DNA of 64,000 bases from an uncultured Candidatus Saccharibacteria bacterium (lineage in GTDB: Bacteria > Patescibacteriota > Saccharimonadia > Saccharimonadales > CAZVRA01), in assembly GCA_964630055.1 (NCBI GenBank), contig CAZVRA010000001.1:174483-238482 (forward strand), written 5' to 3'. A model generated the notes under the pieces. The model was not told the DNA's origin and did not search any database. It worked only from the letters and a program-made list of their open reading frames with translations. Positions 28,359 to 64,000 of this stretch are shown here, one piece after another. The position numbers were made by a program, and so were the translations under genes. How positions within the stretch are numbered: the first letter of the stretch is position 1; every line of letters begins with the position of its first letter.

Positions 28359-28433
28359 GGCCTCATCGTCTAACGGTTAGGACACCAGGTTTTCATCCTG
28401 GCAATCGGGGTTCGATTCCCCGTGAGGTCACCA
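28359..28433 (+). tRNA. tRNA-Glu (anticodon TTC), CCA encoded
   Basis: Cloverleaf folded by hand. Acceptor stem 7 bp with one G-T pair, D-stem 4 bp, anticodon stem CCAGG/CCTGG, loop TTTTCAT, T-arm CGGGGTTCGATTCCCCG, discriminator A then CCA. Confidence 0.85.
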
Positions 28434-44297: not shown

Positions 44298-45068
44298 ATG
44301 AAGCAAGGGCAACGGGCTTGGACGCGTGAAGAACTGATTCTGGTAGTAAACCTATATCTAAAACTACCCTTTGGGAGACTACATAAGCTTAATCCGGAAG
44401 TTGTCGAACTTGCTAGCCTCCTCAACAGAACAACCAATTCAATTGCGCTCAAGTTAGTTAATTTTGCCAGCCTTGACCCCAGTATCAAGGCTCGTGGTTT
44501 CAGCGGTATGAAAAACGCAAGCAAGCTTGATGTCCAGGTATGGCATGAATTCTTCGATAACTGGGAATCCCTTCCTTTCGAAAGCGAAGAACTTCTCGCT
44601 AAACATAGACACACTACTGTTGAGGAGCTGAATCACATCTCGGAGGAAGAATTGCCGAAAGAAGGAATTGATAGAGAACGAATTGTTAAGACTAGGGTCA
44701 ACCAATCACTCTTCAGAAGTTCAATTCTAGCCGCCTACAACAATACATGCTGTATCACCGGTATTAACAAGCCTGAGCTGTTAGTGGCTGGGCATATACG
44801 ACCGTGGGGCATTGATGAAAAAAACAGATTAAATCCGCGAAACGGTTTGGCAATTAACGCACTTCACGACAGGGCATTTGAGTCTGGGCTTCTTACGGTA
44901 ACTCCAGACTATAGAGTACATATATCCTCCGCACTCCTTAAACAGAAAGATGAATTTATTAAAGAATACTTTGGCAGGTACGATAATCAACCAATTATTC
45001 TTCCATCAAGATTCTTACCAGACATCAAGTTCCTTGAATACCATAACAAAGAGAGGTTTATTGCCTAA
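44298..45068 (+). CDS. HNH endonuclease-family protein (HNH_2-like putative restriction endonuclease)
   Basis: CCITGINKPELLVAGHIRPW...NGLAINALHDRAFESGLLTV is the HNH core. Divergent from the C5-MTase. Confidence 0.6.
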   Translation: MKQGQRAWTREELILVVNLYLKLPFGRLHKLNPEVVELASLLNRTTNSIALKLVNFASLDPSIKARGFSGMKNASKLDVQVWHEFFDNWESLPFESEELLAKHRHTTVEELNHISEEELPKEGIDRERIVKTRVNQSLFRSSILAAYNNTCCITGINKPELLVAGHIRPWGIDEKNRLNPRNGLAINALHDRAFESGLLTVTPDYRVHISSALLKQKDEFIKEYFGRYDNQPIILPSRFLPDIKFLEYHNKERFIA

Positions 45069-45148: not shown

Positions 45149-47524
45149 TCAGAGAACTAACGTCTCACCACTCGTTGGTTCGCTAATTTTGGTGCCAGAG
45201 ATACGGCAGTAGAAGTTGTAGGCAGGCAGGTTGCTAATCTCGCCCTTTTCTATGTACGGCTCAAACAATGGTAGCAGCAACTCCTCGTCCTTAGGACTAC
45301 CAGTCCTAAAGGTAACAATTGTCCCTACATTAGCTAGGATGATATCAATCAACTTTTGATTATCCTGTTGCTGGGTGCTTTGTTCTGCCATGGTGACGTA
45401 AACCTTATATTTTCTGGCCTCGCTGAGCATCTGAGTAAACGAAACCGTCGCAAAGTTCTGGAACTCATCTACGTACAGGTGGAACGGCTTGCGCGTAGTC
45501 TGTTTTTGTTCTGAACGCTTCAATGCCGCTAGCTGGAGCTTGGCTAGTATGGTCGTTCCAAATAATGACGATGTGTCCTCTCCCAGGCGTCCTTTAGAAA
45601 AGTTGCACACCAGTATCTTGCCGTCCAACACCTCGCTGAAGTCTATGTCTGATTTTTCTTTCTCTAACATAGTGCGTGCACTGGCTGAGAACAGGAATCG
45701 ACCTATTTTGGCCGTGATACCAGCCGCCATCTTTACCTTCTGCATACTACCAGCCTTGCCCAGCTCGTTCTTCCAAAATGCCTTGAGGTCTTCATTCTTG
45801 AGATCTTTGATGACCTTCTTGGCATACTTGCCGTCGTTTAGTAACCGGAAAATAGTAAACAGTGTAGGATTATCAGTAGTGAATGCCGTATGTATGGTGT
45901 TGCGCAGTATGTACTCTATCCTGTGACCGCCGGTGTCATCATCTGAAAACACTTTGCGCATAACAGATATAACCGACTCCGTAACCCTATCTTTCTCGCG
46001 CAGTAGGTCGTTGCCGCTCAAGCCCTCTGGTAACTCCAGTAGGTTCACACCAATGGGGTGGTCTAGGTCGTCGGGGTTGAGGTAGATTAAATCTTTTTCG
46101 CGCTCTTTTGGAACATACTCGAGCAATTCTTCTGCCAGATCACCGTGTGGATCAATAATAGCCACGCCTTTGCCAGCACGTATATCCTGTACAATCTGGT
46201 ATTTGAGCATAGTGGTCTTGCCGCTGCCGGTGCCACCGACTATGTACATGTGCCGTTCTCGCTCTGCCGCAGTTAGCCCAATGGGTGTTTCTTCTTCGTG
46301 ATGTTTGTTTACCCCAATGATTACATCAAAGTTTTGATTGCTCCTCAGGCTCATAGGAGCCGCTAGCGTCTTGTTGTGCGAGCGCACCATACCCTCTACC
46401 TTCATAACACCGTGCGGAAAATGGTATAGACTGCCCAACTCCGCGGCACTAAGTATCAGGGAGTTTTTGTTAATGATTGCTGACAGGCGACTATTGAACA
46501 GTTTGTTTTTGTAGTTTTGCCAACCATTACCACCAAACGGGTTGAACAAGATAATTGACTGAAAACCAGGCCTGTCTAGGACCTTAAGTGATCCGACAAA
46601 GTCATCGACTATTTCCTGGCTATCTCGGGCATTTATGCTCAAGCGCATGTCTACCTTAGCCAGTGGCTGGTCAAGCTTCTGGATAATCTCTTCGTATAGC
46701 TTCTCTTCTGCCTGAGTCAAAGGTGCTGGCGGTTCGTTATTGCTAAAATAGCCAATCGCTCCAATAACCAGCGCTGATATAAGTCCTAGAGCCCAGTTCT
46801 TTGCCAAAATACCAATAATTGCACCAGGCAACCACACCCATGCATACGCCAGCAGATAATACTTAATGCCGCCTCCTACGTGGGTGCGACCATCTTTGAG
46901 AAGCCTGTTATACAGGCGACCAACACCCCTTGAGCCAAACGGCCTCACTACAAGCTGGAGCGACACATTGTCCTTACCGCCAAGCCGAGTGAAGGTGCTG
47001 GCGATAAAGCCTATGGGGTCGGTTTTGGCAGCGTCAGTGTAAGTCTTGAGCGGATATGCAAAGTGCTGCCTAAGCTTGAATGTGTAGACTCGTGAGTTGG
47101 TGTTTATCTGCGGAACCTCTGTGGTAGATATCCTAACCTCGGGCATATATGAACTGATTTGTTTCTTGATGCCCTTAGCCGAGTGCTTTTCGGCAATTAT
47201 CAGATACCTGACACCTTTAGACTTGTTGCTGGTTATCTCTAGCGATAGACGCTCTTTTGCGTATATGCGCTGTAATACGCGCATAAAGTTCTGGGTATGC
47301 TCGGGATCGACCTGATTCTTATGAGGCGGCGTTATTTCTATGCAGACTAGCTCACGCCCTTTGAATAATGCCAGAATGTCTTGGAGCAAAGAGTAGGTTG
47401 GTATCAGTACGTATTTGTACAAAATATACGCCAGAATAGATATCACTACCGCATTCACGATAACCTCGGTGGTCGTATCACCGAATATTCTAGTGAATAG
47501 TGAGGTAGAAAATATGCCGTACAT
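45149..47524 (-). CDS. Membrane-anchored FtsK/HerA/TraD-superfamily P-loop ATPase (type IV coupling protein-like)
   Basis: N-terminal TM helices. Walker A YIVGGTGSGKTT, then IIDPHGD. Walker B LYVDEFQNF. 791 aa. Confidence 0.5.
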   Translation of the reverse strand: MYGIFSTSLFTRIFGDTTTEVIVNAVVISILAYILYKYVLIPTYSLLQDILALFKGRELVCIEITPPHKNQVDPEHTQNFMRVLQRIYAKERLSLEITSNKSKGVRYLIIAEKHSAKGIKKQISSYMPEVRISTTEVPQINTNSRVYTFKLRQHFAYPLKTYTDAAKTDPIGFIASTFTRLGGKDNVSLQLVVRPFGSRGVGRLYNRLLKDGRTHVGGGIKYYLLAYAWVWLPGAIIGILAKNWALGLISALVIGAIGYFSNNEPPAPLTQAEEKLYEEIIQKLDQPLAKVDMRLSINARDSQEIVDDFVGSLKVLDRPGFQSIILFNPFGGNGWQNYKNKLFNSRLSAIINKNSLILSAAELGSLYHFPHGVMKVEGMVRSHNKTLAAPMSLRSNQNFDVIIGVNKHHEEETPIGLTAAERERHMYIVGGTGSGKTTMLKYQIVQDIRAGKGVAIIDPHGDLAEELLEYVPKEREKDLIYLNPDDLDHPIGVNLLELPEGLSGNDLLREKDRVTESVISVMRKVFSDDDTGGHRIEYILRNTIHTAFTTDNPTLFTIFRLLNDGKYAKKVIKDLKNEDLKAFWKNELGKAGSMQKVKMAAGITAKIGRFLFSASARTMLEKEKSDIDFSEVLDGKILVCNFSKGRLGEDTSSLFGTTILAKLQLAALKRSEQKQTTRKPFHLYVDEFQNFATVSFTQMLSEARKYKVYVTMAEQSTQQQDNQKLIDIILANVGTIVTFRTGSPKDEELLLPLFEPYIEKGEISNLPAYNFYCRISGTKISEPTSGETLVL

Positions 47525-47631: not shown

Positions 47632-49080
47632 ATGGCAAAAATTAACACCAATGCAGTGATACTTGCGAGAGTATCCAGTAAAGCCCAGGAAGACGGTTAT
47701 TCGTTGGACGCCCAGACCAAACTGATACGTGCTTACTGTGCGAGAAACAAACTAGACATAATCAAAGAGTTTCGTATATCCGAAACAGCCTCTAAAAATG
47801 AGCAGAGGAACATATTCAGAGAGATGCTGGCCGAGATTAACCGCAGGGGCATAAACCACCTTGTAGTGGAGAAAACTGACCGCCTAACACGTAACTTCAA
47901 AGACGCTGTCGTGGTAGATGACTGGCTGGAACAGGACGAGAATCGGCGGCTACATATGGTCAAGGAGAGCCTGATCATCCATAAACACGCCAAGTCTGAC
48001 ACGAAGCTAATGTGGAACATATTCTTAGCCATCGCCAAGAAATACACTGATAATCTCAGAGAAGAAGTCATGAAAGGCTGGGATGAAAAGCTGGCGCAAG
48101 GATGGATGCCAGCAGTGCCTCCGCCTGGCTATAAAACTATCACAGAGAATGGTAGGAAGATTCACGTTATAGATGAAGACACAGCGTTTATGGTCGAGAG
48201 GGCCTTTAAGTATTTTCTGTTGCCCGAGGGTTGCGTACGAACTGTTGCAGAAGAATTAAGGAGGTGCGGCTTAACAACTGGCAAGGGTAATCCGCACTCC
48301 AAAAGTGCCGTACACAAAATACTTACCAATAAGTTTTATGTGGGGACAATACAATTCAACGGCAATGAGTATCCGGGTGCTCACGAGCCACTGATAGATA
48401 AAGCTCTTTTCAGCAGGGTGCAGAAAAAGATGAATAGAAGAAACGGCATTAAATCTAGTGACTTAAAGTTCTTGTTCAAGGGGTTTATAAGATGTTCAAC
48501 ATGCGGTGCTTTAGTGACTTGGCAGAGGCAAAAAGGACGCCACTACGGCTCCTGCCAGCGCAGAAGTGAGGCATGCAAAAAAGGCTTCATGAGAGAAGAT
48601 CGGGTCGAAGAAATCATCATAGATAGGCTGGGCAAAATTGACGACAAAGACGGTGTACTGTTTGAATCTGTAAAGACAACGTTACTCGAGTACAGGAATC
48701 CATTCTCGGGTACTGATGTGACCAAAATGGAGAGGCTACTCACTGCTCAACTAAGGCGGCTCAAGATGATGGATACAGCCTTGTATGACGATAAGCTTAC
48801 GGGGCTAATTGACCAATCTGTCTACGTGCAAAAAGCTGAGCGCATCAAGCTAAGGGTAGATAGAGTCGAGGCAAGGCTCAGCGAGCTAGAGCTACATGTA
48901 AAAAATATTGAGGACATAACAACGCGCAAAAAATCCAGGTATGCGATGAGAAAACTATATATGCAGTCTGGTTTTGCCGAAAAGCGGCTGATTATCGATA
49001 ATCTGCTCCGTCTAACCTCAAAAGACAATGAAGTGCATATTGACTTGCTACCTATGACAAAGGCCGCCTCTGGAGTATAA
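47632..49080 (+). CDS. Large serine recombinase
   Basis: N-terminal AVILARVSSKAQEDGYSLDAQ catalytic Ser motif. Recombinase domain, Cys-rich zinc ribbon (CSTCGAL...CQRRSEAC) and a C-terminal coiled coil. 482 aa. Confidence 0.8.
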   Translation: MAKINTNAVILARVSSKAQEDGYSLDAQTKLIRAYCARNKLDIIKEFRISETASKNEQRNIFREMLAEINRRGINHLVVEKTDRLTRNFKDAVVVDDWLEQDENRRLHMVKESLIIHKHAKSDTKLMWNIFLAIAKKYTDNLREEVMKGWDEKLAQGWMPAVPPPGYKTITENGRKIHVIDEDTAFMVERAFKYFLLPEGCVRTVAEELRRCGLTTGKGNPHSKSAVHKILTNKFYVGTIQFNGNEYPGAHEPLIDKALFSRVQKKMNRRNGIKSSDLKFLFKGFIRCSTCGALVTWQRQKGRHYGSCQRRSEACKKGFMREDRVEEIIIDRLGKIDDKDGVLFESVKTTLLEYRNPFSGTDVTKMERLLTAQLRRLKMMDTALYDDKLTGLIDQSVYVQKAERIKLRVDRVEARLSELELHVKNIEDITTRKKSRYAMRKLYMQSGFAEKRLIIDNLLRLTSKDNEVHIDLLPMTKAASGV

Positions 49081-53835: not shown

Positions 53836-54666
53836 ATGAAATTTTTAACTAAGCGTCTATGGTTATATGCAGTAGTCGCCACAGCTTTTATTTTTGCTTT
53901 GTCGCCAGTGGCGCTAGCTCGTCAGCAAACATCTCAGGGCTATGTTGCCACCGAAAAGCTTAAGGACGGCTCTTTGGTCAGCCTTGGTCAGGGTAGTAGC
54001 CAAAATGTTGAGCATAGTACCGTAGACAATCGAGGCCGTCTGTTGGGAGTTGTTGTAAATCCTACACAGACTGTTGTAAATTTTGCTGAAGGCCAAAATA
54101 AGGTACAAGTTGCAACAACGGGCGAAGCGCCGCTCTATGTTTCGGATGTAAATGGTGTTATTAATGCCGATGACCCGCTGACGGTGTCGCCAGTTAGCGG
54201 AGTGGCCATGAGAGCGAGCACTGCCGGTAAGATTATTGGTTTTGCGCGGCAAAATTTTGATAGCACCAAAGCAAACAATATTCAAGATGTTGAACTGATG
54301 TCCAATGATGGCCAAAAAAAGACCACCAAAGTAGGCCTGATTCAGGCTCAAATAAATGTCCAAGATTGGGTGCCAAGCGGTACTCAAAACAGTGCTATAT
54401 TGAACGGTCTGCGGGGTGTGGTTGGCAACATGGCTGGCCGACCGGTGTCTAATATTCAGGCTACAGCAGTAGTGGTTATGGTGCTTTTTGCGCTCATTGC
54501 GTCAAGTATTATTTTGTATAGCTCAGTATCGTCTAGTATTCATTCTATTGGTCGCAATCCGCTGTCCAAGGGTATTATCCGCCGCAGCTTGGTGCTTATG
54601 GTTGGGCTTGCTATTATGTTATGGATAGGTACTGCATTAGCAGTTTATGCAATTTTAGGAGGGTAA
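53836..54666 (+). CDS. Membrane protein: secreted N-terminal domain plus a C-terminal two-helix hairpin resembling ATP-synthase subunit c but lacking the carboxylate; first gene of the atp operon
   Basis: Signal peptide. C-terminal ...SIGRNPLSKG (compare the c-subunit RQP loop), then LMVGLAIMLWIGTALAVYAILGG, which aligns with E. coli c helix 2 ([22 protein letters not shown]) with Ala at the Asp61 position. Lies 5 nt upstream of atpF. Confidence 0.35.
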   Translation: MKFLTKRLWLYAVVATAFIFALSPVALARQQTSQGYVATEKLKDGSLVSLGQGSSQNVEHSTVDNRGRLLGVVVNPTQTVVNFAEGQNKVQVATTGEAPLYVSDVNGVINADDPLTVSPVSGVAMRASTAGKIIGFARQNFDSTKANNIQDVELMSNDGQKKTTKVGLIQAQINVQDWVPSGTQNSAILNGLRGVVGNMAGRPVSNIQATAVVVMVLFALIASSIILYSSVSSSIHSIGRNPLSKGIIRRSLVLMVGLAIMLWIGTALAVYAILGG

Positions 54667-54671
54667 GGTAA

Positions 54672-55292
54672 ATGTATTTTGAAATGTTGGTTTTGGTGGC
54701 ACTGTTACTGCTTAACTCTGGTTTGCTTGTTGTGTGGTTGTCTGTGCGTTCGCATAAGTCCAAGTTAGAAGCCGACTACAAGCGGCAGTTGGAGGCAGCC
54801 ATCCTTAAACCAGAGTTTGTAGCTGGTTTGCGCCGCGAGCTAGAACAACAAATGCAAGATAAATTCACTACTGCACTTAAGCCTATCGACACCGAGACCA
54901 AACGATTTATCGAGGCAGTCAACAAAGAAGCGGCTTCGTCGCTTAAAACATCGACCGAATCGAACCGCAGTTTAATAGAACAGTCTTTGCAGAAATATAC
55001 TCAAGAAATACAGGCATTGCTCAAAGAGGATATTGCTAGTTTGCAAGCCGGTGTTAGCAACGCCCAAAATTCCTTAAACGGCATAGAGCGCGATTACAAA
55101 ACGGCGTTGGACCAGCAGCGGCAGGTTTTGGTGGCGCGGGCGCAAACATTGGCCAGGGATCAATTGGCTGATCTTTTGGTAGAATATTTGCACGCCAGTG
55201 TAGCCGGGCTAGAAATTGGTGATCAACAGGAGTTTATACTAAGTAAGCTCGAAGAAAACAAACAGACGCTACTACAGGAGCTAGCACAGTGA
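54672..55292 (+). CDS. atpF: F-type ATP synthase subunit b-like (N-terminal TM plus a long coiled coil)
   Basis: Single N-terminal TM helix, Q/L/E-rich helical remainder. Positioned ahead of the delta gene. Confidence 0.45.
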   Translation: MYFEMLVLVALLLLNSGLLVVWLSVRSHKSKLEADYKRQLEAAILKPEFVAGLRRELEQQMQDKFTTALKPIDTETKRFIEAVNKEAASSLKTSTESNRSLIEQSLQKYTQEIQALLKEDIASLQAGVSNAQNSLNGIERDYKTALDQQRQVLVARAQTLARDQLADLLVEYLHASVAGLEIGDQQEFILSKLEENKQTLLQELAQ

Positions 55293-55753
55293 AAAAGAGT
55301 GAGTCTAGAGCTGACTGCAATCTGCCTTGGCAGCTAGCTAGTCGGGAGACATGCAGTCGCTTGTTGTTAGAAATCGACGAGAGGCTGGCGGGCATAGTAG
55401 ATAGCGATACACCTGTTAGCGATGAAATGTTGCAACTGCTAAGCGCCAACGGTCTAGCATCTAGCGCTAAAACTAATTTAACAGAACTGAGCCGATGCTT
55501 GTCGCAAACCACACGCCATCGCAGTTATCTAAAAATAACAACAGCAACGCCCTTAACAGTTGAATCCCAGCAATCAATTTTGCAATGGGTGGATCGTAAT
55601 ATCGGCAACAACCAAATTTTAGTAAGCTTTATAACCGATAGTAGCGTCATTGGCGGAGCCATCATACAAACCCCAACTAAACGGCTTGACTATACTATAG
55701 ACGGCAATAGCTCTAGTGGGCGGCAGCGTATTGCGGCAATGGTGGCGGCATGA
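55289..55753 (+). CDS. atpH: F-type ATP synthase subunit delta (OSCP), GTG start
   Basis: C-terminal VIGGAIIQTPTKRLDYTIDGN resembles the delta LIGGVVIRIGDRVIDGS. Coupled to its neighbours by GTGA/ATGA overlaps. Confidence 0.5.
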   Translation: MKKSESRADCNLPWQLASRETCSRLLLEIDERLAGIVDSDTPVSDEMLQLLSANGLASSAKTNLTELSRCLSQTTRHRSYLKITTATPLTVESQQSILQWVDRNIGNNQILVSFITDSSVIGGAIIQTPTKRLDYTIDGNSSSGRQRIAAMVAA

Positions 55754-57165
55754 GTCAGTTATTTAAGACTTTGGCCAAACAGAACAACCAAGTCGGCGAA
55801 GTTCGGCTAGTAAAAAGTTTTTTGATAACAGTAGTTGGTTTGGGCAATGCTCAGGTAAGAGCTCGAGTTTTGTTTGATAACGGCGCCATAGGCATGGTCC
55901 GCTCATTTAGTGGTGACGAAACAATTGTTTACTTGCTATCATCCGACGATGACACCATAACTGTTGGTCAGCAGGCGGTCATACAATCTGATGATATGAC
56001 TATTCATCCTAGTACTAAGTTAAAGGGCAGAGTTGTAGACCCGCTGCTAAGGCCCCTAGATGATGGCCCGGAGATTGTTGCTAAGTCTAGTCAGCAGATT
56101 TTTGGCGAGGCTCCGCGGTTTGACCAGCGCCTGCTATTAGACCAGCAGCTGGAAACTGGTGTGACTATTATCGATACGCTATTTCCAATTGTAATGGGTC
56201 AGCGTATTGCGCTAATGGGGGACCCTAAGTCGGGTAAAACAACCTTTGCTGCTCAGTTGGCAATTCATCAGGCAAAATTTGGCCGAACAGTTGTGTTTGT
56301 GCTGATTGCCAAGCGCCGTACCGATGTTGAACGACTAATTGGTATTTTGACTAGGGCTGGCACTATGGACAAAGTGGTTCTAGTAGTGGCAGATAGTTTT
56401 GCAGCTTTGCCAATGGCCTATCTGGCACCGTACAGCGGTTGTTCGGTGGCCGAGTATTTTTGGCAGCATGGAGAAGACGTGGTAATAATTTACGATGATC
56501 TAACCAACCATGCCAAAATTTACCGAGAAATGTCATTGCTGGAAGGTGCTTCGCCGGGCCGAGAGTCTTACCCAGGAGACATGTTCTATCGGCATTCGTC
56601 ACTTTTGGAACGAGCCGGAAGGCTAGCGTCCAATCAGCGAACCCTGACGGCTTTACCTATTATAACTATTGCCAACAACGATATAACTAGCTTTTTGTCT
56701 ACTAGTATTATATCGATTACTGACGGGCAATTGGTGTTCGATACCGAAGAAATGCAGCGTGGAGCTGCGCCGCCGATTAATACGGGTATATCGGTATCGC
56801 GTGTTGGTGGGCGGGCTCAGCAGATGCTGCAAAAACAGATGGCCCAGGATATTTTTAAGGCTTTGGCCGACTACCGACAAGCCAGCCAATTTTCGCACTT
56901 CGGCCAAGAGCTACCCGAGCATTACCGTGAAGCGCTGCGTTTGGGCGAGCGTTTGCAGCAGATGTTTAACCAGGAACCGAACGAATTTTTCTCGCTGGCT
57001 GAACAGCAAATCATACTCAAAACGGCCTTTTTGGCTGGCGAGTCTTCGCTGGATATACCCGAAATTAAGAGGCGGGTGCGGGCAACTATGGATGCGGCCT
57101 TGGCCACTCAGACTCACGAAGATATGGCTAACGAATTAATAAAAATGCAACGAGGTAAAAAATAA
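55750..57165 (+). CDS. atpA: F-type ATP synthase subunit alpha (divergent P-loop GDPKSGKT)
   Basis: N-terminal beta-barrel region, P-loop, and overall alpha-like length and topology (471 aa). Confidence 0.75.
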   Translation: MSQLFKTLAKQNNQVGEVRLVKSFLITVVGLGNAQVRARVLFDNGAIGMVRSFSGDETIVYLLSSDDDTITVGQQAVIQSDDMTIHPSTKLKGRVVDPLLRPLDDGPEIVAKSSQQIFGEAPRFDQRLLLDQQLETGVTIIDTLFPIVMGQRIALMGDPKSGKTTFAAQLAIHQAKFGRTVVFVLIAKRRTDVERLIGILTRAGTMDKVVLVVADSFAALPMAYLAPYSGCSVAEYFWQHGEDVVIIYDDLTNHAKIYREMSLLEGASPGRESYPGDMFYRHSSLLERAGRLASNQRTLTALPIITIANNDITSFLSTSIISITDGQLVFDTEEMQRGAAPPINTGISVSRVGGRAQQMLQKQMAQDIFKALADYRQASQFSHFGQELPEHYREALRLGERLQQMFNQEPNEFFSLAEQQIILKTAFLAGESSLDIPEIKRRVRATMDAALATQTHEDMANELIKMQRGKK

Positions 57166-58028
57166 TGTTTAATGATCCGCGGGTTTTAAAACGCGAGCTA
57201 CAAACTATCCGCGATATCAGTACTTTAACAGAGGTATTCGAACACACTGCTAGTATAAAAATTAAAGCTGTGCGTCAGCGAGTTTTGAGCGCAAAAGTGT
57301 TTTTTAATGATTTGTGGCAAATTTATAGTCAGCTTCGGGTTGATGTACCGCACGGTTTGCATGACCGAGTAAATCGCAAAGATCTATTGATTTTTATTGC
57401 TTCGCCGGCGGGGCTGTCGGGACAACTGGACCAGCAAAACTTTGAAGAAATGATGCGAGTTTACAAACAGGATGAGCACGACGTGCTGGTGATTGGCTCG
57501 CATGGGGCGCAGCTGCTTAGGCAGGCTGGCATAAAACCAGTGCGAGCTTTTGAGACGCCCGATACGGCTGGCGCCTTTACGGTTCAGCCCATAGTGGAGG
57601 CAATTGCTAACTATAACTTTGCAACTGCTTTTTACCAGTCTTATGTGTCGCTAACAGTTCAGCACGGCGCAAAGTTACAGCTACTGCTTAACGCGCTAGA
57701 ACTAAGCCAAGAAGAACGAGACATGCTCGATAGGGGAGATGTAGAGATAATCTCGCCAGAAAACTTTTTGTTTGAGCCGTCAATTGGCGAGGTGGTTAGG
57801 GCCATGGAGCGTGTTATGCTCAACACCTCGATTGATCATTTGCTTCAGGAGTCGCGTCTTGCTCAACTGGCTGGTAGATTTACGACCATGACACTGGCTA
57901 ATCAGCGAGCCGAGGAGGCCACAAAGCGCACGTTCTTGCGTTATCTGAGCGCTAAAAGGTCTAAACGCGATGAAATGACTCGCCAAATTATGGCCGCAAC
58001 TATGGCCACAAAAGGAGCCGCAGCATGA
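57165..58028 (+). CDS. atpG: F-type ATP synthase subunit gamma
   Basis: N-terminal LKRELQTIRDISTLTEVFEHTASIKIKAVRQR matches the gamma N-helix pattern. C-terminal ...MTRQIMAATMATKGAAA matches the gamma C-helix. Confidence 0.6.
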   Translation: MFNDPRVLKRELQTIRDISTLTEVFEHTASIKIKAVRQRVLSAKVFFNDLWQIYSQLRVDVPHGLHDRVNRKDLLIFIASPAGLSGQLDQQNFEEMMRVYKQDEHDVLVIGSHGAQLLRQAGIKPVRAFETPDTAGAFTVQPIVEAIANYNFATAFYQSYVSLTVQHGAKLQLLLNALELSQEERDMLDRGDVEIISPENFLFEPSIGEVVRAMERVMLNTSIDHLLQESRLAQLAGRFTTMTLANQRAEEATKRTFLRYLSAKRSKRDEMTRQIMAATMATKGAAA

Positions 58029-59344
58029 GCACCACCAAAGCCATCAATGCTAATCAACTTGGATTTGTCATAGCCGTAAATGGCCTAGTGGTGACTGTTC
58101 GGCTGTCTGGGCGTCAACCAGCCGTTGGCGAAATGCTTACCATCAACGAAAAACCGGGCGTAGTACTTTTTGTGGAATCGGTCAATGATACCGAAGCCGA
58201 ATGCCTGAATATCCGCGGCAGTAACAGCATCTGCCGTGGAGACAAAATTTCTGGTCAGGGCATCAGCCTAGGCCTGCCTGCTGGCAAGCCGGTTCTGGGG
58301 CGAGTTTTTAATGCGCTTGGTGAAGTTATGGATGGCCAAGCCACACTTAAAAAAACCGACTTAGTGCCATACAATGCGCCAATTCAGCAAAAGCTGCGCA
58401 AACTGCATAAGCCAGAAGTTTTAGAGACTGGTATTAAGGTGATCGATTTTTTGGCACCTTTTGTAAAAGGCCGCCGAATAGGCATTATTGGTGGTGCCGG
58501 TGTTGGCAAGACTGTTCTGACAACCGAAATGATCCACAACGTAGCCGACAAAAAAACCGCACTCAACTTTTTTGTTGGTATTGGTGAGCGTATCCGCGAA
58601 GGTCACGAGTTATTTCATGCTCTGCAAAAACGAGGTCTAGTCGACAACACGGTTATGTATATGGGTCAAATGAACGACAATGCTGCGCTGCGTTCTATGG
58701 TTGGCCCTTCTGCGGCGACAGTGGCGCGTAGTTTTAGCGACGAAGGCAAAGATATTTTGTTTTTCATAGACAATATTTTTCGTTTTGTTCAGGCTCGCAA
58801 TGAGCTGGCCGCTATGCGTGGTGGTATCCCGTCGGAGGGTGGTTACCAGGCGAGCATGTTTTCGGATCTGCATTGCTTTGAGGACTCGTTAGTCAGTAGC
58901 GGCAAGGGATCTATTACGAGCATTCAGTCTATTTACATTCCGGCCGATGATTTAGGCGACCCAGCCGTGGTTGAAATTAGTCAGCAGTTAGATTCGACCA
59001 TTGTGCTGTCGCGCGATATTTTTGAGCGAGGTGTCTTCCCGGCAGTTGATTTGCTGGCTACTACTAGCACACTGATTACTCCGGAGGTTTTGGGTGAGCG
59101 GCACTATCGACTAGTGGGCAGAGTTAAGGCAATTATGCGCAAATATTACAATTTACGAACCATTACGGCCATTGTTGGCGAAAATGAATTATCGCCAGAG
59201 GATCGTGCCGACTTCTTGCATGCTCAGGAAATAACCAAGTTTTTCTCGCAGGATATGTTTGTAACCGAAGATCTAACTGGCAAAAAAGGCCAGTATTTTA
59301 CCCGAGAGCAAACACTAAAAGGTCTCGAAGCAATTTTGCAGTAG
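58025..59344 (+). CDS. atpD: F-type ATP synthase subunit beta
   Basis: P-loop GGAGVGKT. Catalytic GIGERIREG. DELSEED-like ENELSPEDR. 439 aa. Confidence 0.85.
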   Translation: MSTTKAINANQLGFVIAVNGLVVTVRLSGRQPAVGEMLTINEKPGVVLFVESVNDTEAECLNIRGSNSICRGDKISGQGISLGLPAGKPVLGRVFNALGEVMDGQATLKKTDLVPYNAPIQQKLRKLHKPEVLETGIKVIDFLAPFVKGRRIGIIGGAGVGKTVLTTEMIHNVADKKTALNFFVGIGERIREGHELFHALQKRGLVDNTVMYMGQMNDNAALRSMVGPSAATVARSFSDEGKDILFFIDNIFRFVQARNELAAMRGGIPSEGGYQASMFSDLHCFEDSLVSSGKGSITSIQSIYIPADDLGDPAVVEISQQLDSTIVLSRDIFERGVFPAVDLLATTSTLITPEVLGERHYRLVGRVKAIMRKYYNLRTITAIVGENELSPEDRADFLHAQEITKFFSQDMFVTEDLTGKKGQYFTREQTLKGLEAILQ

Positions 59345-59355
59345 GATAGACCAAA

Positions 59356-59625
59356 GTGAAGCATTTTACCGCAACGCCAGAATTGACCGTCCGGGCTCAT
59401 AGTATGAGGGGTATGCTGTACGAAGGCCAGGCTTTTTCGGTTTCGGCCAAAAACAAGCTGGGACCCTTTGATATACTGCCCGGACATGCAAATTTGATAT
59501 CTATTCTGCTAGATTGCAGTATAAATATAGAAACCCCAACCGGCTCTAAGCAATTTGCTATTGACAGCGGGCTGATTAAAGTTTCGGATAATGCTATCGA
59601 TTTGTTTGTTGATACCACCGTTTAA
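59356..59625 (+). CDS. atpC: F-type ATP synthase subunit epsilon (short form, beta-sandwich only)
   Basis: GPFDILPGHANLISIL matches the epsilon GIYPGHAPLLTAI. 89 aa, lacking the C-terminal helical hairpin. Confidence 0.6.
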   Translation: MKHFTATPELTVRAHSMRGMLYEGQAFSVSAKNKLGPFDILPGHANLISILLDCSINIETPTGSKQFAIDSGLIKVSDNAIDLFVDTTV

Positions 59626-59716
59626 ACTGTGGATAACTGCTTGCTACATAAGCGTATTGTAGCTACAATAAGCGTAAGCTAACTAGAGCTAACTTGGCCG
59701 AACATTGGGAAAATAA

Positions 59717-62700
59717 ATGGATATCAAAAAAAGTGGGGCCGATAAAGGCACCGATAACTACGGTTTAGAAAGTCTACAGGTCACGCCCAATCAGTCAGGG
59801 CGCTCTTTTACTTCTACTCCAGATAGCGAAGCCTTTATACCTAGGCGACCGCCGGTTTGGAAAAATCGGCTATTTTTGGGCGCGCTGTTGCTGCTGATAG
59901 TTTTATTTTTTTTGCTTGGCTTGTGGCTATTTGGTCGCCGTATCAAGCAGGGTGGCACTCAGTCGGGCGATATACTAGGCACATATAAGCAAACTTCTGC
60001 ACCTGTTTTGGGCGATACCGCTAACAAACCAGCCCAATCTTTGCTAGACGACAAAGTGTCTATTAACGGCAGTTTGTTACTAAATGGCGATTTAGCGTTA
60101 TCGAACCAGGCGGTTCAAAGCCTGGCTAACCGTCTGCGACCAGTTTTGTTGGGGCCGCCGGCTGGTGGAGCGCAGCAAGTTGGTAGTATTAATTTGTCTG
60201 GACGGATTGTCGCTAACAATTTTCAGGGCAATGGTTCGGCGTTGACTAGCCTAAACGCCAACAATATAAATTCCGGTACGCTTAGCAATGATCGGCTTGA
60301 TCCAAGTGTTACGCGGCTAGGCCAGAACATTCCGGTTGCGGCTATTCAGGGTAACGTACTGGGGTCAATTAATAATATTACGTCTAATTCGGGCGGGAAT
60401 GTCAATGTAGTTGGTGGCTTTGGCATAGATATACTGAACGATTCTGCTACCAAAACCATTACCATTTCTAACTCAAGCACCGGGGGCGATATAACAGCGG
60501 TTATCGCCGGCACGGGCTTAACGGGTGGCGGGACGTCTGGCGACGTGACGCTTAGCATGGATGCTTCCACGGTCACCTTGCAAGGTAACAATTTTAATGG
60601 CGCCAATCAGCTGGTTCAGCTAGATGGTTCGAACAAGCTGCCGGTGGCCGATGGCTCTAATTTAACCAATCTAAATGCTAGCAACATTTCTGCTGGCACC
60701 TTGGCTGATGCTCGGTTGAGCAGCAATGTCGCCAGGTTAAATGCTAGCCAAACCTTTACTGGCAACAATACATATTCTGGAAATACTAAGTACCAAAACA
60801 GCGCTAATTCCACATCAGCCTTCCAAATCCAAAATGCCACTGGCACTAGCAACCTGTTTGTGGCCGACACTACCAACACTCGCATTGGCATTGGCACGGC
60901 TGCACCGGCTTACGCCCTAGATGTGGCGGGCGACATAAATTCCAGTACCGCCCTTAAGGTGGGCGGCAACACTGTTTGTACCTCTAGCGGCTGTGCCGTG
61001 GCGAGCGGATCTAGCTATTATATTCAGAATGGCACAGGCGTGCAGTCTAATGCCAACTTAAATATTCAGTCGGCCGCTGCTGGCAGCACGGTGGCCGTGC
61101 TCCAAGGTGCGGCTGGCCAAACCGCCGACATCTTAGAGGCTAAAAATTCTACGGGTACGGTTATGGCCAGTATCGACGCCGCTGGCAACATCAACACCAC
61201 TGGCCAGTACCGAGTTAATGGCAGCCAAATATCCAGCGCTAATCTTAGTAATAACTCTAATTTGGCTAAACTGAACGGTAACGAAACCTACACCGGCAAC
61301 AACACTTTTACTGGTACTGTAAAACAACAAAACGCTACCAACTCTACCTCGGCATTCCAGATCCAAAACGCTGCTGGTACCGGCACAGCACTAGTAGTTG
61401 ACACCACCAATCTTAGGCTTGGCGTTGGCAACAATACTCCCGCCTATGCCCTAGACGTTACCGGAGATGTTAACGCTAGCACTAGCCTTAAGGTTGGTGG
61501 TACTACTGTTTGTACCTCCACTGGCTGTACTATTAGCAGTGGCTCTGGCTACTATATCCAGAACGGCACTACCAAACAAGCGGCTAACTTTAACATTCAA
61601 AGTGCGGCGGCGAGTAGCGTGGCTGGCGTGCTGCAAGGCGCCACCAGCCAAACCGCCGACCTGCTCCAAGCCAAGAACGCCTCTGGCACGACTCTGGCTA
61701 GTATCGACGCTGCTGGCAACATTAATACCACTGGCCAGTACAAAGTCAACGGTAGTCAAATCGCTTCTAGTAACCTGTCAGATAGTTCTAATCTAGCTAA
61801 ACTGGATGCTAACCAAACCTTCACTGGCAACAATGCTTTCACTGGCACTGTAAAACAACAAAATACTACCAACTCTACATCAGCCTTCCAAATCCAAAAC
61901 GCTGCTGGCACTAGCAACCTCTTCGTGGCTGACACCACCAACACTCGCATTGGTATCGGCACGGCTGCTCCCGCCTACGCTCTGGACGTAACCGGAGACA
62001 TCAACGCTAGCAATAGTCTTAAGGTTGGTGGCACAACTGTTTGTACCTCCACTGGCTGTACTGCTGCTGGTGGTTCTGGCAGCTACATCCAAAACGGCAC
62101 TGCTAGCCAAACGGCTAACTTTAACATTAAATCTGCTGCCGCCGCCAGCACAGTAGCTGTACTGCAAGGTGCCACTAGCCAAACCGCCGACCTGCTTCAA
62201 GCCAAGAACTCTACCGGCACAACCCTAGCTAGCATTGATGCTGCTGGCAACATAAACACCACTGGTCAGTACAAAGTCAACGGCAGCCAAATTAGCTCAT
62301 CTGCCCTAAGCAACGACAGTAACCTAGCCAAGCTAAATGCTAGCCAGACGTTTAGTGGTGTCAATACGTTTAGCGGCGGAATCGTGACCAACAGTTTAAC
62401 GCCAACTGCGGCCTTAACAATTGGCGACAGCAGCCAGTCGTTTACTTTGCAGGGCACAGCGGCCTCTACTTTGACCGCCGCAGCCAGCGGCTTTAGTACT
62501 ACGGTTGGTTTTGCCGGAACCCCCGTAGCCAACTTGCAGTACAACTTTGACATGGCGGCGCCCTCGGGAACATACACTATTTGTACTACTTATGGTAACT
62601 GTGCTGGCACCGGTGGAGGCGTGACCACTACCGGCGGAACGGCCAACAAAGTGGCTAAATTCCAAAATGGCTCCGGTATAACCGACTCCAACATTACAGA

Positions 62701-64000
62701 TACTGGCAGTTTGATCACTCTTGGGTCGCGGTCGTTGGTCCAGCCGTCGGCCAACTCGACAACCGCCTTCCAAATCCAAAACGCTGCTGGCACTAGCAAT
62801 CTGTTTGTGGCTGACACCACCAATAACCGTGTTGGCATTGGCACGGCCAGCCCCGGCTACACGCTGGACGTTAATGGCACGGTCAATGCCAGCACCAACA
62901 TTTATGTTAACGGTACGGCTGTTTGTACGGTAACGGTCTGCGCCTCGTCGGTTGGCTCCGGCAATTATATTCAAAACAGTACGACTACTCAGACGGCCAA
63001 TCTGAGTATTCAGTCAGCCAACAACGCTTATGTTGCAGCTACTTTGCAAGGCGCCACCAGCCAAACCGCCGACCTGCTCCAAGCCAAGAACGCCTCTGGC
63101 ACGACTCTGGCTAGTATCGACGCTGCTGGCAACATTAATACCACTGGCCAGTACAAAGTCAACGGTAGTCAAATCGCTTCTAGTAACCTGTCAGATAGTT
63201 CTAATCTAGCTAAACTGGATGCTAACCAAACCTTCACTGGCAACAATGCTTTCACTGGCACTGTAAAACAACAAAATACTACCAACTCTACATCAGCCTT
63301 CCAAATCCAAAACGCTGCTGGCACTAGCAACCTCTTCGTGGCTGACACCACCAACACTCGCATTGGTATCGGCACGGCTGCTCCCGCCTACGCTCTGGAC
63401 GTAACCGGAGACATCAACGCTAGCAATAGTCTTAAGGTTGGTGGCACAACTGTTTGTACCTCCACTGGCTGTACTGCTGCTGGTGGTTCTGGCAGCTACA
63501 TCCAAAACGGCACTGCTAGCCAAACGGCTAACTTTAACATTAAATCTGCTGCCGCCGCCAGCACAGTAGCTGTACTGCAAGGTGCCACTAGCCAAACCGC
63601 CGACCTGCTTCAAGCCAAGAACTCTACCGGCACAACCCTAGCTAGCATTGATGCTGCTGGCAACATAAACACCACTGGTCAGTACAAAGTCAACGGCAGC
63701 CAAATTAGCTCATCTGCCCTAAGCAACGACAGTAACCTAGCCAAGCTAAATGCTAGCCAGACGTTTAGTGGTGTCAATACGTTTACGGGCACAGTCTTGC
63801 AGCAAAACGCCACCAACTCCACCAGCGCCTTCCAGATCCAGAATGCCACTGGCACTAGCAACCTGTTTGTGGCCGACACCACCAACACCCGAATTGGCAT
63901 TGGCACGGCTGCACCGGCTTACACCTTGGATGTGGCAGGCGATTTAAATGTGTCTAGCGGCTCAACTATCAGGATTGGTGGCACGGCTATTTGTGGCCCA
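59717..64000 (+). CDS. Giant repetitive Asn/Thr/Gly/Ala-rich surface protein, partial (runs off the window); absent from the ORF track because no stop falls within the window
   Basis: ATG at 59717, then an open frame to 64000. N-terminal TM helix (LFLGALLLLIVLFFLLGLWLF). Repeating roughly 140-aa units containing STSAFQIQNAAGTSNLFVADTTNTRIGIGTAAPAYALDV-GDINAS, LKVGGTTVCTSTGC, and VLQGATSQTADLLQAKN-SGTTLASIDAAGNINTTGQYKVNGSQI. Confidence 0.7.
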   Translation, partial: MDIKKSGADKGTDNYGLESLQVTPNQSGRSFTSTPDSEAFIPRRPPVWKNRLFLGALLLLIVLFFLLGLWLFGRRIKQGGTQSGDILGTYKQTSAPVLGDTANKPAQSLLDDKVSINGSLLLNGDLALSNQAVQSLANRLRPVLLGPPAGGAQQVGSINLSGRIVANNFQGNGSALTSLNANNINSGTLSNDRLDPSVTRLGQNIPVAAIQGNVLGSINNITSNSGGNVNVVGGFGIDILNDSATKTITISNSSTGGDITAVIAGTGLTGGGTSGDVTLSMDASTVTLQGNNFNGANQLVQLDGSNKLPVADGSNLTNLNASNISAGTLADARLSSNVARLNASQTFTGNNTYSGNTKYQNSANSTSAFQIQNATGTSNLFVADTTNTRIGIGTAAPAYALDVAGDINSSTALKVGGNTVCTSSGCAVASGSSYYIQNGTGVQSNANLNIQSAAAGSTVAVLQGAAGQTADILEAKNSTGTVMASIDAAGNINTTGQYRVNGSQISSANLSNNSNLAKLNGNETYTGNNTFTGTVKQQNATNSTSAFQIQNAAGTGTALVVDTTNLRLGVGNNTPAYALDVTGDVNASTSLKVGGTTVCTSTGCTISSGSGYYIQNGTTKQAANFNIQSAAASSVAGVLQGATSQTADLLQAKNASGTTLASIDAAGNINTTGQYKVNGSQIASSNLSDSSNLAKLDANQTFTGNNAFTGTVKQQNTTNSTSAFQIQNAAGTSNLFVADTTNTRIGIGTAAPAYALDVTGDINASNSLKVGGTTVCTSTGCTAAGGSGSYIQNGTASQTANFNIKSAAAASTVAVLQGATSQTADLLQAKNSTGTTLASIDAAGNINTTGQYKVNGSQISSSALSNDSNLAKLNASQTFSGVNTFSGGIVTNSLTPTAALTIGDSSQSFTLQGTAASTLTAAASGFSTTVGFAGTPVANLQYNFDMAAPSGTYTICTTYGNCAGTGGGVTTTGGTANKVAKFQNGSGITDSNITDTGSLITLGSRSLVQPSANSTTAFQIQNAAGTSNLFVADTTNNRVGIGTASPGYTLDVNGTVNASTNIYVNGTAVCTVTVCASSVGSGNYIQNSTTTQTANLSIQSANNAYVAATLQGATSQTADLLQAKNASGTTLASIDAAGNINTTGQYKVNGSQIASSNLSDSSNLAKLDANQTFTGNNAFTGTVKQQNTTNSTSAFQIQNAAGTSNLFVADTTNTRIGIGTAAPAYALDVTGDINASNSLKVGGTTVCTSTGCTAAGGSGSYIQNGTASQTANFNIKSAAAASTVAVLQGATSQTADLLQAKNSTGTTLASIDAAGNINTTGQYKVNGSQISSSALSNDSNLAKLNASQTFSGVNTFTGTVLQQNATNSTSAFQIQNATGTSNLFVADTTNTRIGIGTAAPAYTLDVAGDLNVSSGSTIRIGGTAICGP
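61632..62372 (+). repeat. 741-bp direct repeat copy 1 (identical at every position compared by eye to 63045-63785)
   Basis: A base-by-base comparison at several points shows identity from tgcaaggcgccaccagcc to gtgtcaatacgttta. Divergence follows immediately after. The offset is 1413 bp, which keeps the reading frame. Confidence 0.8.
63045..63785 (+). repeat. 741-bp direct repeat copy 2
   Basis: See copy 1. Identical minus-strand shadow ORFs at 61756..61962 / 63169..63375 and 61880..62200 / 63293..63613 confirm the match. Confidence 0.8.

What the first reader, a model, noticed from the sequence alone, without database searches (positions are those of the whole stretch)
59717..64000. Giant repeat protein with an exact 741-bp in-frame duplication
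An open + strand frame of more than 1420 codons encodes an N-terminally anchored protein. It is built from Asn/Thr/Gly-rich units of about 140 aa (IGIGTAAPAYALDV-GD, LKVGGTTVCTSTGC and NINTTGQYKVNGSQI motifs, reminiscent of fibre or adhesin beta-helical repeats). Two copies (61632-62372 and 63045-63785) appeared identical at every position I compared, whereas older repeat copies have diverged. This indicates very recent duplication or gene conversion. Such loci are typical sites of phase or antigenic variation and of assembly collapse.
Basis: seen in the sequence. Interest (0 to 1): 0.55.

Follow-up and report, generated by a model that had tools for sequence, protein, structure and literature searches.

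The report
Recent in-frame copy in fibre gene
A giant, membrane-anchored, fibre-like surface protein gene of a Saccharibacteria-type (CPR) bacterium carries a truly exact 741-bp in-frame internal copy, the mark of a very recent recombination between its own repeats; this is an ordinary behaviour for repeat-rich surface proteins, in a protein family that nobody has yet characterised.

Summary
Window 61632-62372 and 63045-63785 are identical at all 741 positions, offset by 1413 bp (471 codons, in frame). This is the only exact repeat of 60 bp or more in the 64 kb. The open frame starts at ATG 59717 and runs off the window (1428 codons). It encodes one N-terminal membrane helix, a conserved 255-aa module, and at least 5.4 repeat units of 177 aa (not about 140). 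A conserved 117-aa module sits between units 3 and 4. Other unit pairs are only 62-75% identical in DNA, with saturated synonymous sites, so the exact tract is very young. Unit 4 is a chimera of an old front half and a back half identical to unit 2. That points to non-reciprocal intragenic recombination rather than simple tandem duplication. Homologues are 1-2.5 kaa proteins of Saccharibacteria MAGs. Positional orthologues sit directly after the ATP synthase operon and carry variable C-terminal tips (CBM_4_9, Kelch, S74 chaperone with YadA-head repeats, phage collar). Two strains with 98.65% identical flanks differ completely in the middle of the gene. My best reading is a mosaic, probably trimeric, host-adhesion fibre whose length can change by recombination. 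Phase variation is not supported. Copy number cannot be verified without reads.

The parts
59717..64000 (+). 5' part (1428 codons) of the giant surface-protein gene. It runs off the window end, so the C-terminal tip is unknown.
   Evidence: Open frame with no stop, and ATG directly after TAA. 361 homologues of 1-2.5 kaa. Positional orthologues lie right after atpC in three other assemblies.
59867..59935 (+). The single N-terminal transmembrane helix or signal anchor (aa 51-73), preceded by about 50 cytoplasmic residues.
   Evidence: It is the only Kyte-Doolittle peak above 1.6 in 1428 aa. The sequence is RRPPVWKNR-LFLGALLLLIVLFFLLGLWLFG-RRIKQ.
60017..60781 (+). Conserved membrane-proximal module (aa 101-355) with G-x-LT-x-LNA-x-NI-x-GTL-x-x-RL sub-repeats.
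   Evidence: It aligns at 40-57% identity to the same N-proximal position in 115 of 120 homologues. No Pfam or PDB match.
60782..61315 (+). Repeat unit u1 (178 aa).
   Evidence: Unit alignment and HMM.
61316..61846 (+). Repeat unit u2 (177 aa). Its last 72 codons lie inside exact copy A.
61847..62377 (+). Repeat unit u3 (177 aa), almost wholly inside exact copy A.
61632..62372 (+). Exact copy A (741 bp), made of the back of u2 plus u3. It is the probable donor.
   Evidence: Identical to 63045-63785. The u1-u3 front halves and back halves each form one clade.
62373..63044 (+). Unique 672-bp spacer between the two copies. It holds the conserved 117-aa module (62378-62728, with a C-x5-C pair) and the old front half of u4.
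   Evidence: The module is conserved in 85 of 120 homologues, where it normally lies directly before the first unit. The u4 front half is as distant from u1-u3 as it is from the homologues.
62729..63259 (+). Repeat unit u4, a chimera: the front 105 codons are old (59-64% nt identity to u2) and the back 72 codons are identical to u2.
63045..63785 (+). Exact copy A' (741 bp), made of the back of u4 plus u5. It is the probable recipient.
63260..63790 (+). Repeat unit u5 (177 aa), which equals u3 except for its last 2 codons.
63791..64000 (+). Start of unit u6 (70 codons, diverged), cut by the window end.
53836..59625 (+). F-type ATP synthase operon directly upstream. It serves as the conserved synteny anchor for this gene.
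   Evidence: Pfam OSCP, ATP-synt_ab (twice) and ATP-synt. The same order is seen in L002, L003 and L006.

Best explanation
The gene encodes a very long surface protein of a Saccharibacteria-type (Patescibacteria/CPR) bacterium, held in the membrane by one N-terminal helix. A conserved base module is followed by a stalk built from 177-aa beta-rich units and then, beyond the window, by a tip domain. By analogy with its homologues and with phage and Bdellovibrio fibres, I infer that it forms an extended, probably trimeric, fibre that binds the surface of the host bacterium, most likely glycans. In this lineage the stalk units were amplified within the gene: at least 5 full units, against one full unit plus shorter ones in the positional orthologues. 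The last step was a non-reciprocal recombination, either gene conversion or segmental copy. It placed a 741-bp tract (back of u2 plus u3) over the homologous position (back of u4 plus u5) so recently that no substitution has occurred since. The two exact copies lie 1413 bp apart in frame. They are therefore a substrate for homologous recombination that would delete or re-duplicate 471 aa, changing fibre length but not expression. What is shown: the exact identity, the unit architecture, the chimeric u4, the old age of the other copies, the membrane anchor, the conserved synteny, and the mosaic tips and within-species cassette replacement in homologues. What is inferred: trimeric fibre structure, adhesin function, direction of the transfer, and future instability.
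For: The exact 741-bp pair is the only long repeat in the window. Other unit pairs are 62-75% identical in nucleotides, with pS 0.40-0.79 and dN/dS about 0.1-0.4, so they are old copies under purifying selection. Front halves of u1, u2 and u3 cluster together (distance 0.21-0.30). The u4 front half is as far from them (0.39-0.42) as from homologues, while the u4 back half equals the u2 back half. A simple tandem duplication would give adjacent copies, not the A-B-A arrangement seen here. There is a single TM helix at aa 51-73. 361 homologues come from Saccharibacteria/Saccharimonadales/Patescibacteria MAGs. The atpD relatives that carry names are Saccharimonadales. Positional orthologues follow atpC in GCA_964391595.1, GCA_013558375.1 and SRR12762297. 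Homologue tips include Peptidase_S74 plus YadA_head, phage Collar, collagen, CBM_4_9 and Kelch. S74 is a chaperone specific to trimeric fibres (PMC10769870, section 10). Each unit carries [IVL]G[IV]G[TN]xxPxYxL, matching the published capping-loop consensus of trimeric beta-helix fibres. It occurs in 6 of 6 units and 0 times in 119,396 six-frame residues of the rest of the window (PMC10769870, section 11). The only PDB sequence hit of the unit profile is Bdellovibrio fibre Bd3182, on that loop (GINTAAPAYNIHVTG against GIGTAAPAYALDVTG), at E=0.91. Foldseek top hits are tailspikes, HylP and the Bd3182/Bd1334 fibres, and in BFVD tail fibres and YadA-like proteins at E about 1e-4. Strains L003 and L006 have flanks 98.65% identical. 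Their genes are about 100% identical for the first 790 aa or so and the last 220 aa or so, but only 20-58% identical, with large indels, over the middle 1500 aa or so. Another family member (P0053, L005) has about 3 near-exact tandem 405-bp copies.
Against: There are no reads, so the copy number of the 1413-bp period is unverified. The C-terminus of this particular protein lies outside the window and could not be retrieved. AlphaFold monomer models are of low confidence (pLDDT 70.7 and 62.5; pTM 0.39 and 0.29). All PDB matches, by structure and by sequence, are statistically insignificant. No Pfam, NCBIfam or PDB family covers the unit, and tblastn of the unit against 50,697 phage records finds nothing. 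Recombination between partners that are only 60-65% identical in the flanks is not easy for RecA, so the exact mechanism and direction remain open. No experiment links any member of this family to adhesion.
Confidence: 0.6

Rival explanations
1. Assembly artefact. The repeat array was mis-resolved, and the true locus has a different number of the 1413-bp period (more copies collapsed, or a mixture of strain variants joined through the shared tract).
For: A 741-bp exact repeat is longer than short reads. The source appears to be a MAG contig of 292,339 bp. A short-read Logan assembly of run SRR12404947 holds the same strain only as a 1114-bp fragment that ends inside this gene.
Against: By inference from the sequence, both junction types exist: u2-front into the tract and u4-front into the tract, and the tract into the 117-aa module and into u6. 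The unique 672-bp spacer is entered from the tract and leaves into it. Any genome containing the spacer therefore needs at least two copies of the tract, so collapse (more copies) is more plausible than a false duplication. The window has no Ns or scaffolding gaps. The frame is preserved perfectly. Similar near-exact internal copies occur in an independent family member.
Confidence: 0.15
2. The duplication is real, but the protein is a general structural surface coat (S-layer-like or fibrillar envelope component) and not a specific host-recognition adhesin. Repeat number would then simply set coat thickness.
For: The gene keeps a conserved position next to a housekeeping operon across genera whose atpD is only 61-70% identical. 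The unit is extremely widespread, with 11,923 representative proteins. CPR surfaces are described as fibrous and rich in giant membrane proteins (PMC8080830).
Against: Homologue tips are ligand-binding or receptor-binding domains (CBM_4_9, Kelch, collar, S74-type spikes), and they are swapped between near-identical strains. That pattern is typical of receptor-binding proteins, not of structural layers.
Confidence: 0.15
3. A programmed variation system (phase or antigenic variation, or a diversity-generating retroelement) uses the identical tract as a cassette or template.
For: Surface proteins with identical repeats are classic variation loci. CPR genomes are known to be rich in DGRs, which is general knowledge rather than a test made here.
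Against: The tract has 0 mismatches, whereas DGR template and variable repeats differ at adenines and are about 100-150 bp long. No reverse transcriptase, invertase or silent copy lies within the window upstream, and tblastn finds no other copy of any part of the protein in the other 59.7 kb. The copies are in frame, so recombination cannot switch expression off.
Confidence: 0.05

Closest known systems
Bdellovibrio bacteriovorus MAT (mosaic adhesive trimer) fibre proteins, e.g. Bd3182, Bd2133, Bd1334 (Caulton et al. 2024, PMC10769870)
   Same: Both are long (about 1-2.5 kaa) surface proteins of a bacterium that lives on other bacteria. Both have a conserved cell-proximal end and diversified C-terminal tips (S74 or lectin-like domains in homologues). 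Both have a beta-rich stalk with the same capping-loop motif (V/I-G-x-G/N-T-x-x-P-x-x-x-L). Bd3182 is the only PDB sequence hit of the unit profile and a top Foldseek hit, although both matches are insignificant.
   Different: MATs have a cleaved signal peptide and a specific ~130-aa N-terminal domain in a diderm. Here there is an uncleaved-looking N-terminal TM helix and an unrelated 255-aa module in a presumably monoderm CPR cell. The 177-aa unit has no significant sequence or structure match to MAT stalks. Trimerisation is not shown. The tip of this particular protein is unknown.
Phage tail fibres and tailspikes with a C-terminal S74 intramolecular chaperone (K1F endosialidase, T5 L-shaped tail fibre pb1)
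   Same: Homologues of the window protein end in Peptidase_S74 or carry a phage tail collar domain, and NCBI names one 'tail fiber domain-containing protein'. The viral Foldseek hits are tail fibres. Modular tip exchange between close strains mirrors the evolution of phage receptor-binding proteins.
   Different: This is a chromosomal gene next to the ATP synthase operon, not part of a prophage. It has a membrane anchor. Neither tblastn of the unit nor PHROGs gives a meaningful match to phage proteins.
Gram-positive surface proteins with identical repeats (group B streptococcal alpha C and Rib, staphylococcal SasG/Aap), where recombination between identical repeats changes protein size. This comparison rests on my own knowledge and was not checked in the library.
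   Same: Both show DNA-identical in-frame repeats inside a surface-protein gene. In both, the expected outcome is size polymorphism by homologous recombination.
   Different: Those repeats are many and strictly tandem, and the proteins are LPXTG-anchored at the C-terminus. Here only one pair is identical, the two copies are separated by 672 bp of unique sequence, and the anchor is N-terminal.
Trimeric autotransporter adhesins (YadA family)
   Same: YadA-head repeats occur in some homologues, and the overall appearance is that of a fibrous adhesin.
   Different: No YadA C-terminal beta-barrel anchor was found in the homologues scanned. The window protein has no YadA Pfam match and is anchored at its N-terminus.

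Membership tests
MAT superfamily (Bdellovibrio chimeric fibres) | Signal peptide followed by the conserved ~130-aa beta-rich N-terminal domain | not testable with these tools
   No MAT N-domain sequence or structure is available here, and the paper states it has no PDB homologue. The window protein instead has a TM helix (aa 51-73) and a 255-aa module with no PDB or Pfam match.
MAT superfamily (Bdellovibrio chimeric fibres) | Capping-loop motif V-G-G/N-pi-x-x-P-x-x-x-L on the beta-helix | tested here: met
   There is one match per unit, 6 of 6, and 0 in 119,396 six-frame residues of the rest of the window. The profile aligns to both Bd3182 loops, but at E=0.91.
MAT superfamily (Bdellovibrio chimeric fibres) | Trimeric intertwined fibre along the whole length | not testable with these tools
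   Only monomer AlphaFold was available. The models show beta-hairpins without a compact fold, with pLDDT 70.7 and 62.5. This is compatible with a trimeric fibre but is not evidence for it.
MAT superfamily (Bdellovibrio chimeric fibres) | Diversified C-terminal tip (S74 or another adhesive fold) | tested here: inconclusive
   The C-terminus of the window protein lies beyond base 64000 and could not be fetched. Homologues do carry S74, collar, CBM_4_9 and Kelch tips.
S74-type phage tail fibre or tailspike | C-terminal Peptidase_S74 chaperone domain with an SDxxxK motif | not testable with these tools
   That part of the gene is outside the window. PF13884 is present in homologues P0008, P0011 and P0055.
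Trimeric autotransporter adhesin (YadA) | C-terminal YadA beta-barrel membrane anchor | tested here: not met
   There is no YadA_anchor hit in the homologues that carry YadA_head repeats and no YadA hit at all in the window protein. The anchor is N-terminal.
Diversity-generating retroelement target | Template and variable repeat pair differing at adenines, with a reverse transcriptase nearby | tested here: not met
   The tract has 0 mismatches in 741 bp. Upstream genes are ATP synthase subunits and no RT was found in the ORFs scanned. Downstream sequence was not visible.
Phase-variable (on/off) surface gene | A frame-shifting simple repeat, an invertible promoter, or out-of-frame recombination | tested here: not met
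   The offset of 1413 bp is a multiple of 3. Tandem Repeats Finder found no arrays in 59000-64000. There are no inverted 60-mers in the window.

The most novel reading that the evidence does not exclude
This gene and its positional orthologues, always directly after the ATP synthase operon, may be the Saccharibacterial counterpart of phage receptor-binding proteins and Bdellovibrio MAT fibres. On this reading they are membrane-anchored trimeric host-recognition fibres. Their tips are exchanged between strains, and their stalk length is tuned by recombination among 177-aa units. They would then be a main determinant of which host bacterium a CPR epibiont can attach to.
Probability: 0.35. Interest if true: 0.65.

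Novelty: new member of a known kind. Interest (0 to 1): 0.35.

Why it matters
How ultrasmall CPR epibionts recognise their host bacteria is largely unknown. So far type IV pili and a few adhesins have been implicated (PMC10633639, PMC12206443). A conserved-locus, mosaic, fibre-like giant protein with within-species tip replacement and ongoing stalk recombination is a concrete candidate for a host-range determinant. The duplication itself is ordinary repeat dynamics. It matters mainly as a warning for assembly and annotation, and as evidence that the stalk is still evolving by recombination.

Tried and rejected
- Retrieving the rest of the gene or the source contig failed. The exact-protein look-up of atpD found nothing. 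The search for related loci and a 25-mer search in genome contigs found nothing. A 33-mer search in metagenome contigs found nothing. Only a 1114-bp Logan fragment, identical to 59270-60383, came back.
- Pfam, NCBIfam, PHROGs and PDB sequence searches of the protein gave only sub-threshold or summed repeat noise: bpX1 and DUF2572 had no single stretch passing.
- Both AlphaFold monomer models were of low confidence, so the Foldseek hits are only thematic.
- Profiles of the insert-plus-unit segment and of the N-proximal module found nothing in the PDB.
- tblastn of the unit against phage genomes found nothing. The N-proximal module gave only a marginal 48-aa match to a cyanophage hypothetical protein.
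- Tandem Repeats Finder found no array, because the period is above 500 bp and the copies are diverged.
- I rejected a simple tandem duplication because the copies are separated by 672 bp of unique sequence and u4 is chimeric.
- I rejected a DGR, an invertible element, and an IS or other mobile element, because the tract is in-frame coding sequence homologous to its neighbouring units.
- The promoter-like and terminator-like hits around the gene start are no more frequent than in shuffled sequence.


Full report
OBSERVATION. Identity ends exactly at those coordinates. The offset is 1413 bp, or 471 codons, so the copy is in frame. A k-mer scan shows that this is the only exact repeat of 60 bp or more in the 64-kb window, on either strand, and that the window has no Ns. 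The reading frame opens at ATG 59717, immediately after a TAA, and stays open to base 64000. That gives 1428 codons and a gene cut by the window end.

ANATOMY. The protein is rich in T, A, S, G and N. It has no His and only 4 Glu. It has one hydrophobic helix, at aa 51-73, flanked by basic residues, and no other hydrophobic segment.

The repeat period is 531 bp, or 177 aa, not about 140 aa. Units start at aa 356, 534, 711, 1005, 1182 and 1359 (u1-u6; u6 is cut by the window end). A 117-aa non-unit module at aa 888-1004 lies between u3 and u4. Each unit has an invariant C-x4-C pair and one IGIGTAAPAYALDV-type motif.

The exact tract covers the last 72 codons of u2 plus u3. Its twin covers the last 72 codons of u4 plus u5.

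AGE AND MECHANISM OF THE COPY. All other unit pairs are 62-75% identical in DNA. The proportion of synonymous differences is 0.40-0.79, mostly saturated, and dN/dS is about 0.1-0.4. They are therefore old copies kept by purifying selection. Against that background, zero changes in 741 bp marks a very recent event.

The event is not a simple tandem duplication. The copies are separated by 672 bp of unique sequence, giving an A-B-A arrangement. Identity between u2 and u4 also jumps from 59-64% to 100% in the middle of the unit.

Neighbour-joining trees of the unit halves show the same break. The front halves of u1, u2 and u3 form one clade (distance 0.21-0.30). The front half of u4 is as far from them (0.39-0.42) as from the first units of homologues. 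The back half of u4, however, equals that of u2 and sits inside the u1-u3 clade. So u4 is a chimera.

The simplest account is a non-reciprocal recombination (gene conversion or segmental copy) from u2-back plus u3 onto u4-back plus u5. An alternative is an earlier two-unit tandem duplication later interrupted by recombinational replacement of the spacer. I cannot exclude that, and the direction of transfer is an inference.

WHAT THE PROTEIN IS. No Pfam, NCBIfam, PHROGs or PDB family covers it convincingly. A search of 5.8 billion proteins found 361 homologues. Nearly all are 1-2.5 kaa proteins from metagenome-assembled genomes. Where they carry names, these are Candidatus Saccharibacteria, Saccharimonadales or Patescibacteria. 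The ATP synthase beta subunit next door has its named relatives in Saccharimonadales. Its only 100% match comes from a 292,339-bp NCBI contig that the tools would not return.

The family has a fixed order of parts:
- an N-terminal anchor;
- a conserved module corresponding to query aa 101-355, present at that position in 115 of 120 homologues;
- the 117-aa module, present in 85 of 120 homologues and normally directly before the first unit;
- one full unit and one or two shorter units;
- a variable C-terminal part.

In the whole-unit tree u1, u2 and u3 (=u5) form one clade, with u4 beside them inside the 'first full unit' group of the homologues. The front-half tree places the u4 front half apart, as an old lineage. 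The window gene thus has a lineage-specific amplification: at least 5 full units, three of them placed upstream of the 117-aa module.

The unit itself is widespread. Its profile finds 11,923 representative proteins at E<=1e-3 and 582 at E<=1e-30. Many of these are 2-6 kaa long, with up to 51 matched stretches.

CONTEXT AND COMPARISON AMONG STRAINS. The gene follows the F-type ATP synthase operon (53836-59625) after a 91-bp gap. The same arrangement, atpC followed by a giant homologue, occurs in GCA_964391595.1 (P0003, 1669 aa), GCA_013558375.1 (P0009, 2390 aa) and a Logan assembly of SRR12762297 (P0004, 2320 aa). The atpD of these genomes is only 61-70% identical to that of the window. These are therefore positional orthologues across deep divergence.

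Their C-terminal parts differ: CBM_4_9 in P0003 and P0001, and three CBM_4_9 plus a Kelch propeller in P0009. Other homologues end in YadA-head repeats plus a Peptidase_S74 chaperone (P0008, P0055, P0011), carry a phage tail collar domain (P0031), or carry a collagen repeat near the N-terminus (P0041). NCBI calls P0055 a 'tail fiber domain-containing protein'.

The loci of P0009 and P0004 have flanks that are 98.65% identical. Their proteins are about 100% identical over the first 790 aa or so and 99% over the last 220 aa or so. The middle 1500 aa or so is only 20-58% identical, with large indels and no megablast match. This is a within-species replacement of the distal cassette.

Another family member, P0053 at locus L005, has about three near-exact tandem copies of a 405-bp unit. 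Recent in-frame repeat turnover is therefore recurrent in the family.

STRUCTURE. AlphaFold monomer models of one unit (pLDDT 70.7, pTM 0.39) and of the 117-aa module plus u4 (pLDDT 62.5, pTM 0.29) show strings of beta-hairpins without a compact fold. That fits a chain that folds only as an oligomer, but it proves nothing.

Foldseek found no significant PDB match. The top hits are thematically consistent: an Acinetobacter phage tailspike, the Bdellovibrio Bd3182 and Bd1334 fibres, and streptococcal phage HylP triple-stranded beta-helices. In the viral library, YadA-like and tail-fibre proteins appear at E about 1e-4 with low TM-scores.

The unit profile's only PDB sequence hit is again Bd3182 (8ojn/8onb/8onc), at E=0.91. 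It aligns our GIGTAAPAYALDVTG to GINTAAPAYNIHVTG and RVGVGTTAPTSALHV. These are the two 'capping loops' of the trimeric beta-helix, for which Caulton et al. give the consensus V-G-G/N-pi-x-x-P-x-x-x-L (PMC10769870, section 11). The motif occurs once in each of the six units and not at all in 119,396 six-frame residues of the rest of the window.

S74 domains, present in the same polypeptides as the unit in several homologues, are chaperones of trimeric fibres (PMC10769870, section 10). I therefore infer a trimeric fibre, with moderate confidence.

FUNCTION. I infer a membrane-anchored fibre that projects a ligand-binding tip and mediates attachment to the host bacterium. Four points support this:
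- cultivated Saccharibacteria are obligate epibionts;
- their essential gene sets include several adhesins (PMC10633639);
- CPR surfaces are rich in giant membrane proteins thought to bind hosts (PMC8080830);
- the mosaic pattern of conserved base and variable tip is that of phage receptor-binding proteins and of the Bdellovibrio MAT fibres (PMC10769870, Discussion).

My searches of the paper library returned no paper describing this family in Saccharibacteria. That is not proof that none exists.

CONSEQUENCE OF THE EXACT COPY. Two 741-bp identical tracts lying 1413 bp apart are a good substrate for homologous recombination. The product would be an in-frame loss or gain of 471 aa: the back of one unit, a full unit, the 117-aa module and the front of u4. 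This changes stalk length and composition, not expression.

I found no support for phase variation or programmed antigenic variation. There is no frame-shifting repeat, no inverted repeat, no silent copy elsewhere in the window, and no invertase or reverse transcriptase next to the gene. A DGR is excluded for this tract, because its repeats would differ at adenines.

ARTEFACT QUESTION. No reads were available. By inference from the sequence, the unique spacer is entered from the tract and exits into the tract. Any genome that contains the spacer, u2-front and u6 therefore needs at least two copies of the tract. A collapsed higher copy number is thus more plausible than a false duplication. I put about 15% on a mis-resolved copy number.

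A Logan contig from run SRR12404947 is 100% identical to window 59270-60383. The reads of that run could therefore settle the question.

VERDICT. The unit size needs correcting, and the 'phase/antigenic variation' gloss should be dropped in favour of length polymorphism by intragenic recombination. The phenomenon is ordinary for repeat-rich surface proteins. The added value is the family context: a conserved-locus, mosaic, fibre-like giant protein of CPR epibionts. I rate it as a new member of a known kind, with interest 0.35.

Noticed in passing
window 28359-49080: This looks like an integrated mobile and defence island. tRNA-Glu (28359-28433) overlaps a serine recombinase gene (28393-30126, minus strand). 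A second large serine recombinase lies at 47632-49080, and a TraG/VirD4-like coupling ATPase at 45149-47524. A DISARM-like operon spans 33723-43211: DrmE_C, a NERD/UvrD-type helicase, a 1121-aa DEAD/Helicase_C protein and an MZB/DUF1998-like protein. A C5 DNA methylase (43163-44197) and an HNH protein (44298-45068) accompany it.
   Followed up: partly
L003 10335-14531 vs L006 10201-14187: Two Saccharibacteria strains have flanks 98.65% identical, yet they carry unrelated sequence over about 4 kb in the middle of the orthologous giant gene. The first ~2.3 kb and the last 641 bp of the gene are conserved. This is a within-species cassette replacement.
   Followed up: yes
L005 2118-3388: The family member P0053 (JGI metagenome 3300056789) contains about three near-exact tandem copies of a 405-bp (135-aa) unit, so recent in-frame repeat turnover recurs in the family.
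   Followed up: partly
L007 1-1114 (= window 59270-60383): A Logan short-read contig from run SRR12404947 is 100% identical to the window and ends inside the giant gene at a position with no repeated 31-mer in the window. The same strain is present in that public run.
   Followed up: partly
window 59717-64000, aa 421/426, 599/604, 776/781, 956/962, 1070/1075, 1247/1252: Invariant cysteine pairs occur in every unit (C-x4-C) and in the 117-aa module (C-x5-C), in a protein otherwise lacking Cys and His. These are possibly disulphide-stapled loops in an extracellular fibre.
   Followed up: no
window 60346-63906, minus strand: Many ORFs of 60-186 aa lie antisense to the giant gene (e.g. 62414-62974). 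They are probably by-products of the biased, repetitive composition and not genes.
   Followed up: no
C-terminal ~215 aa of P0004 and P0009: The last ~215 aa of P0004 and P0009 are about 99% identical to each other despite the swapped middle, and no Pfam family was reported there. This may be an uncharacterised terminal domain of the fibre.
   Followed up: no
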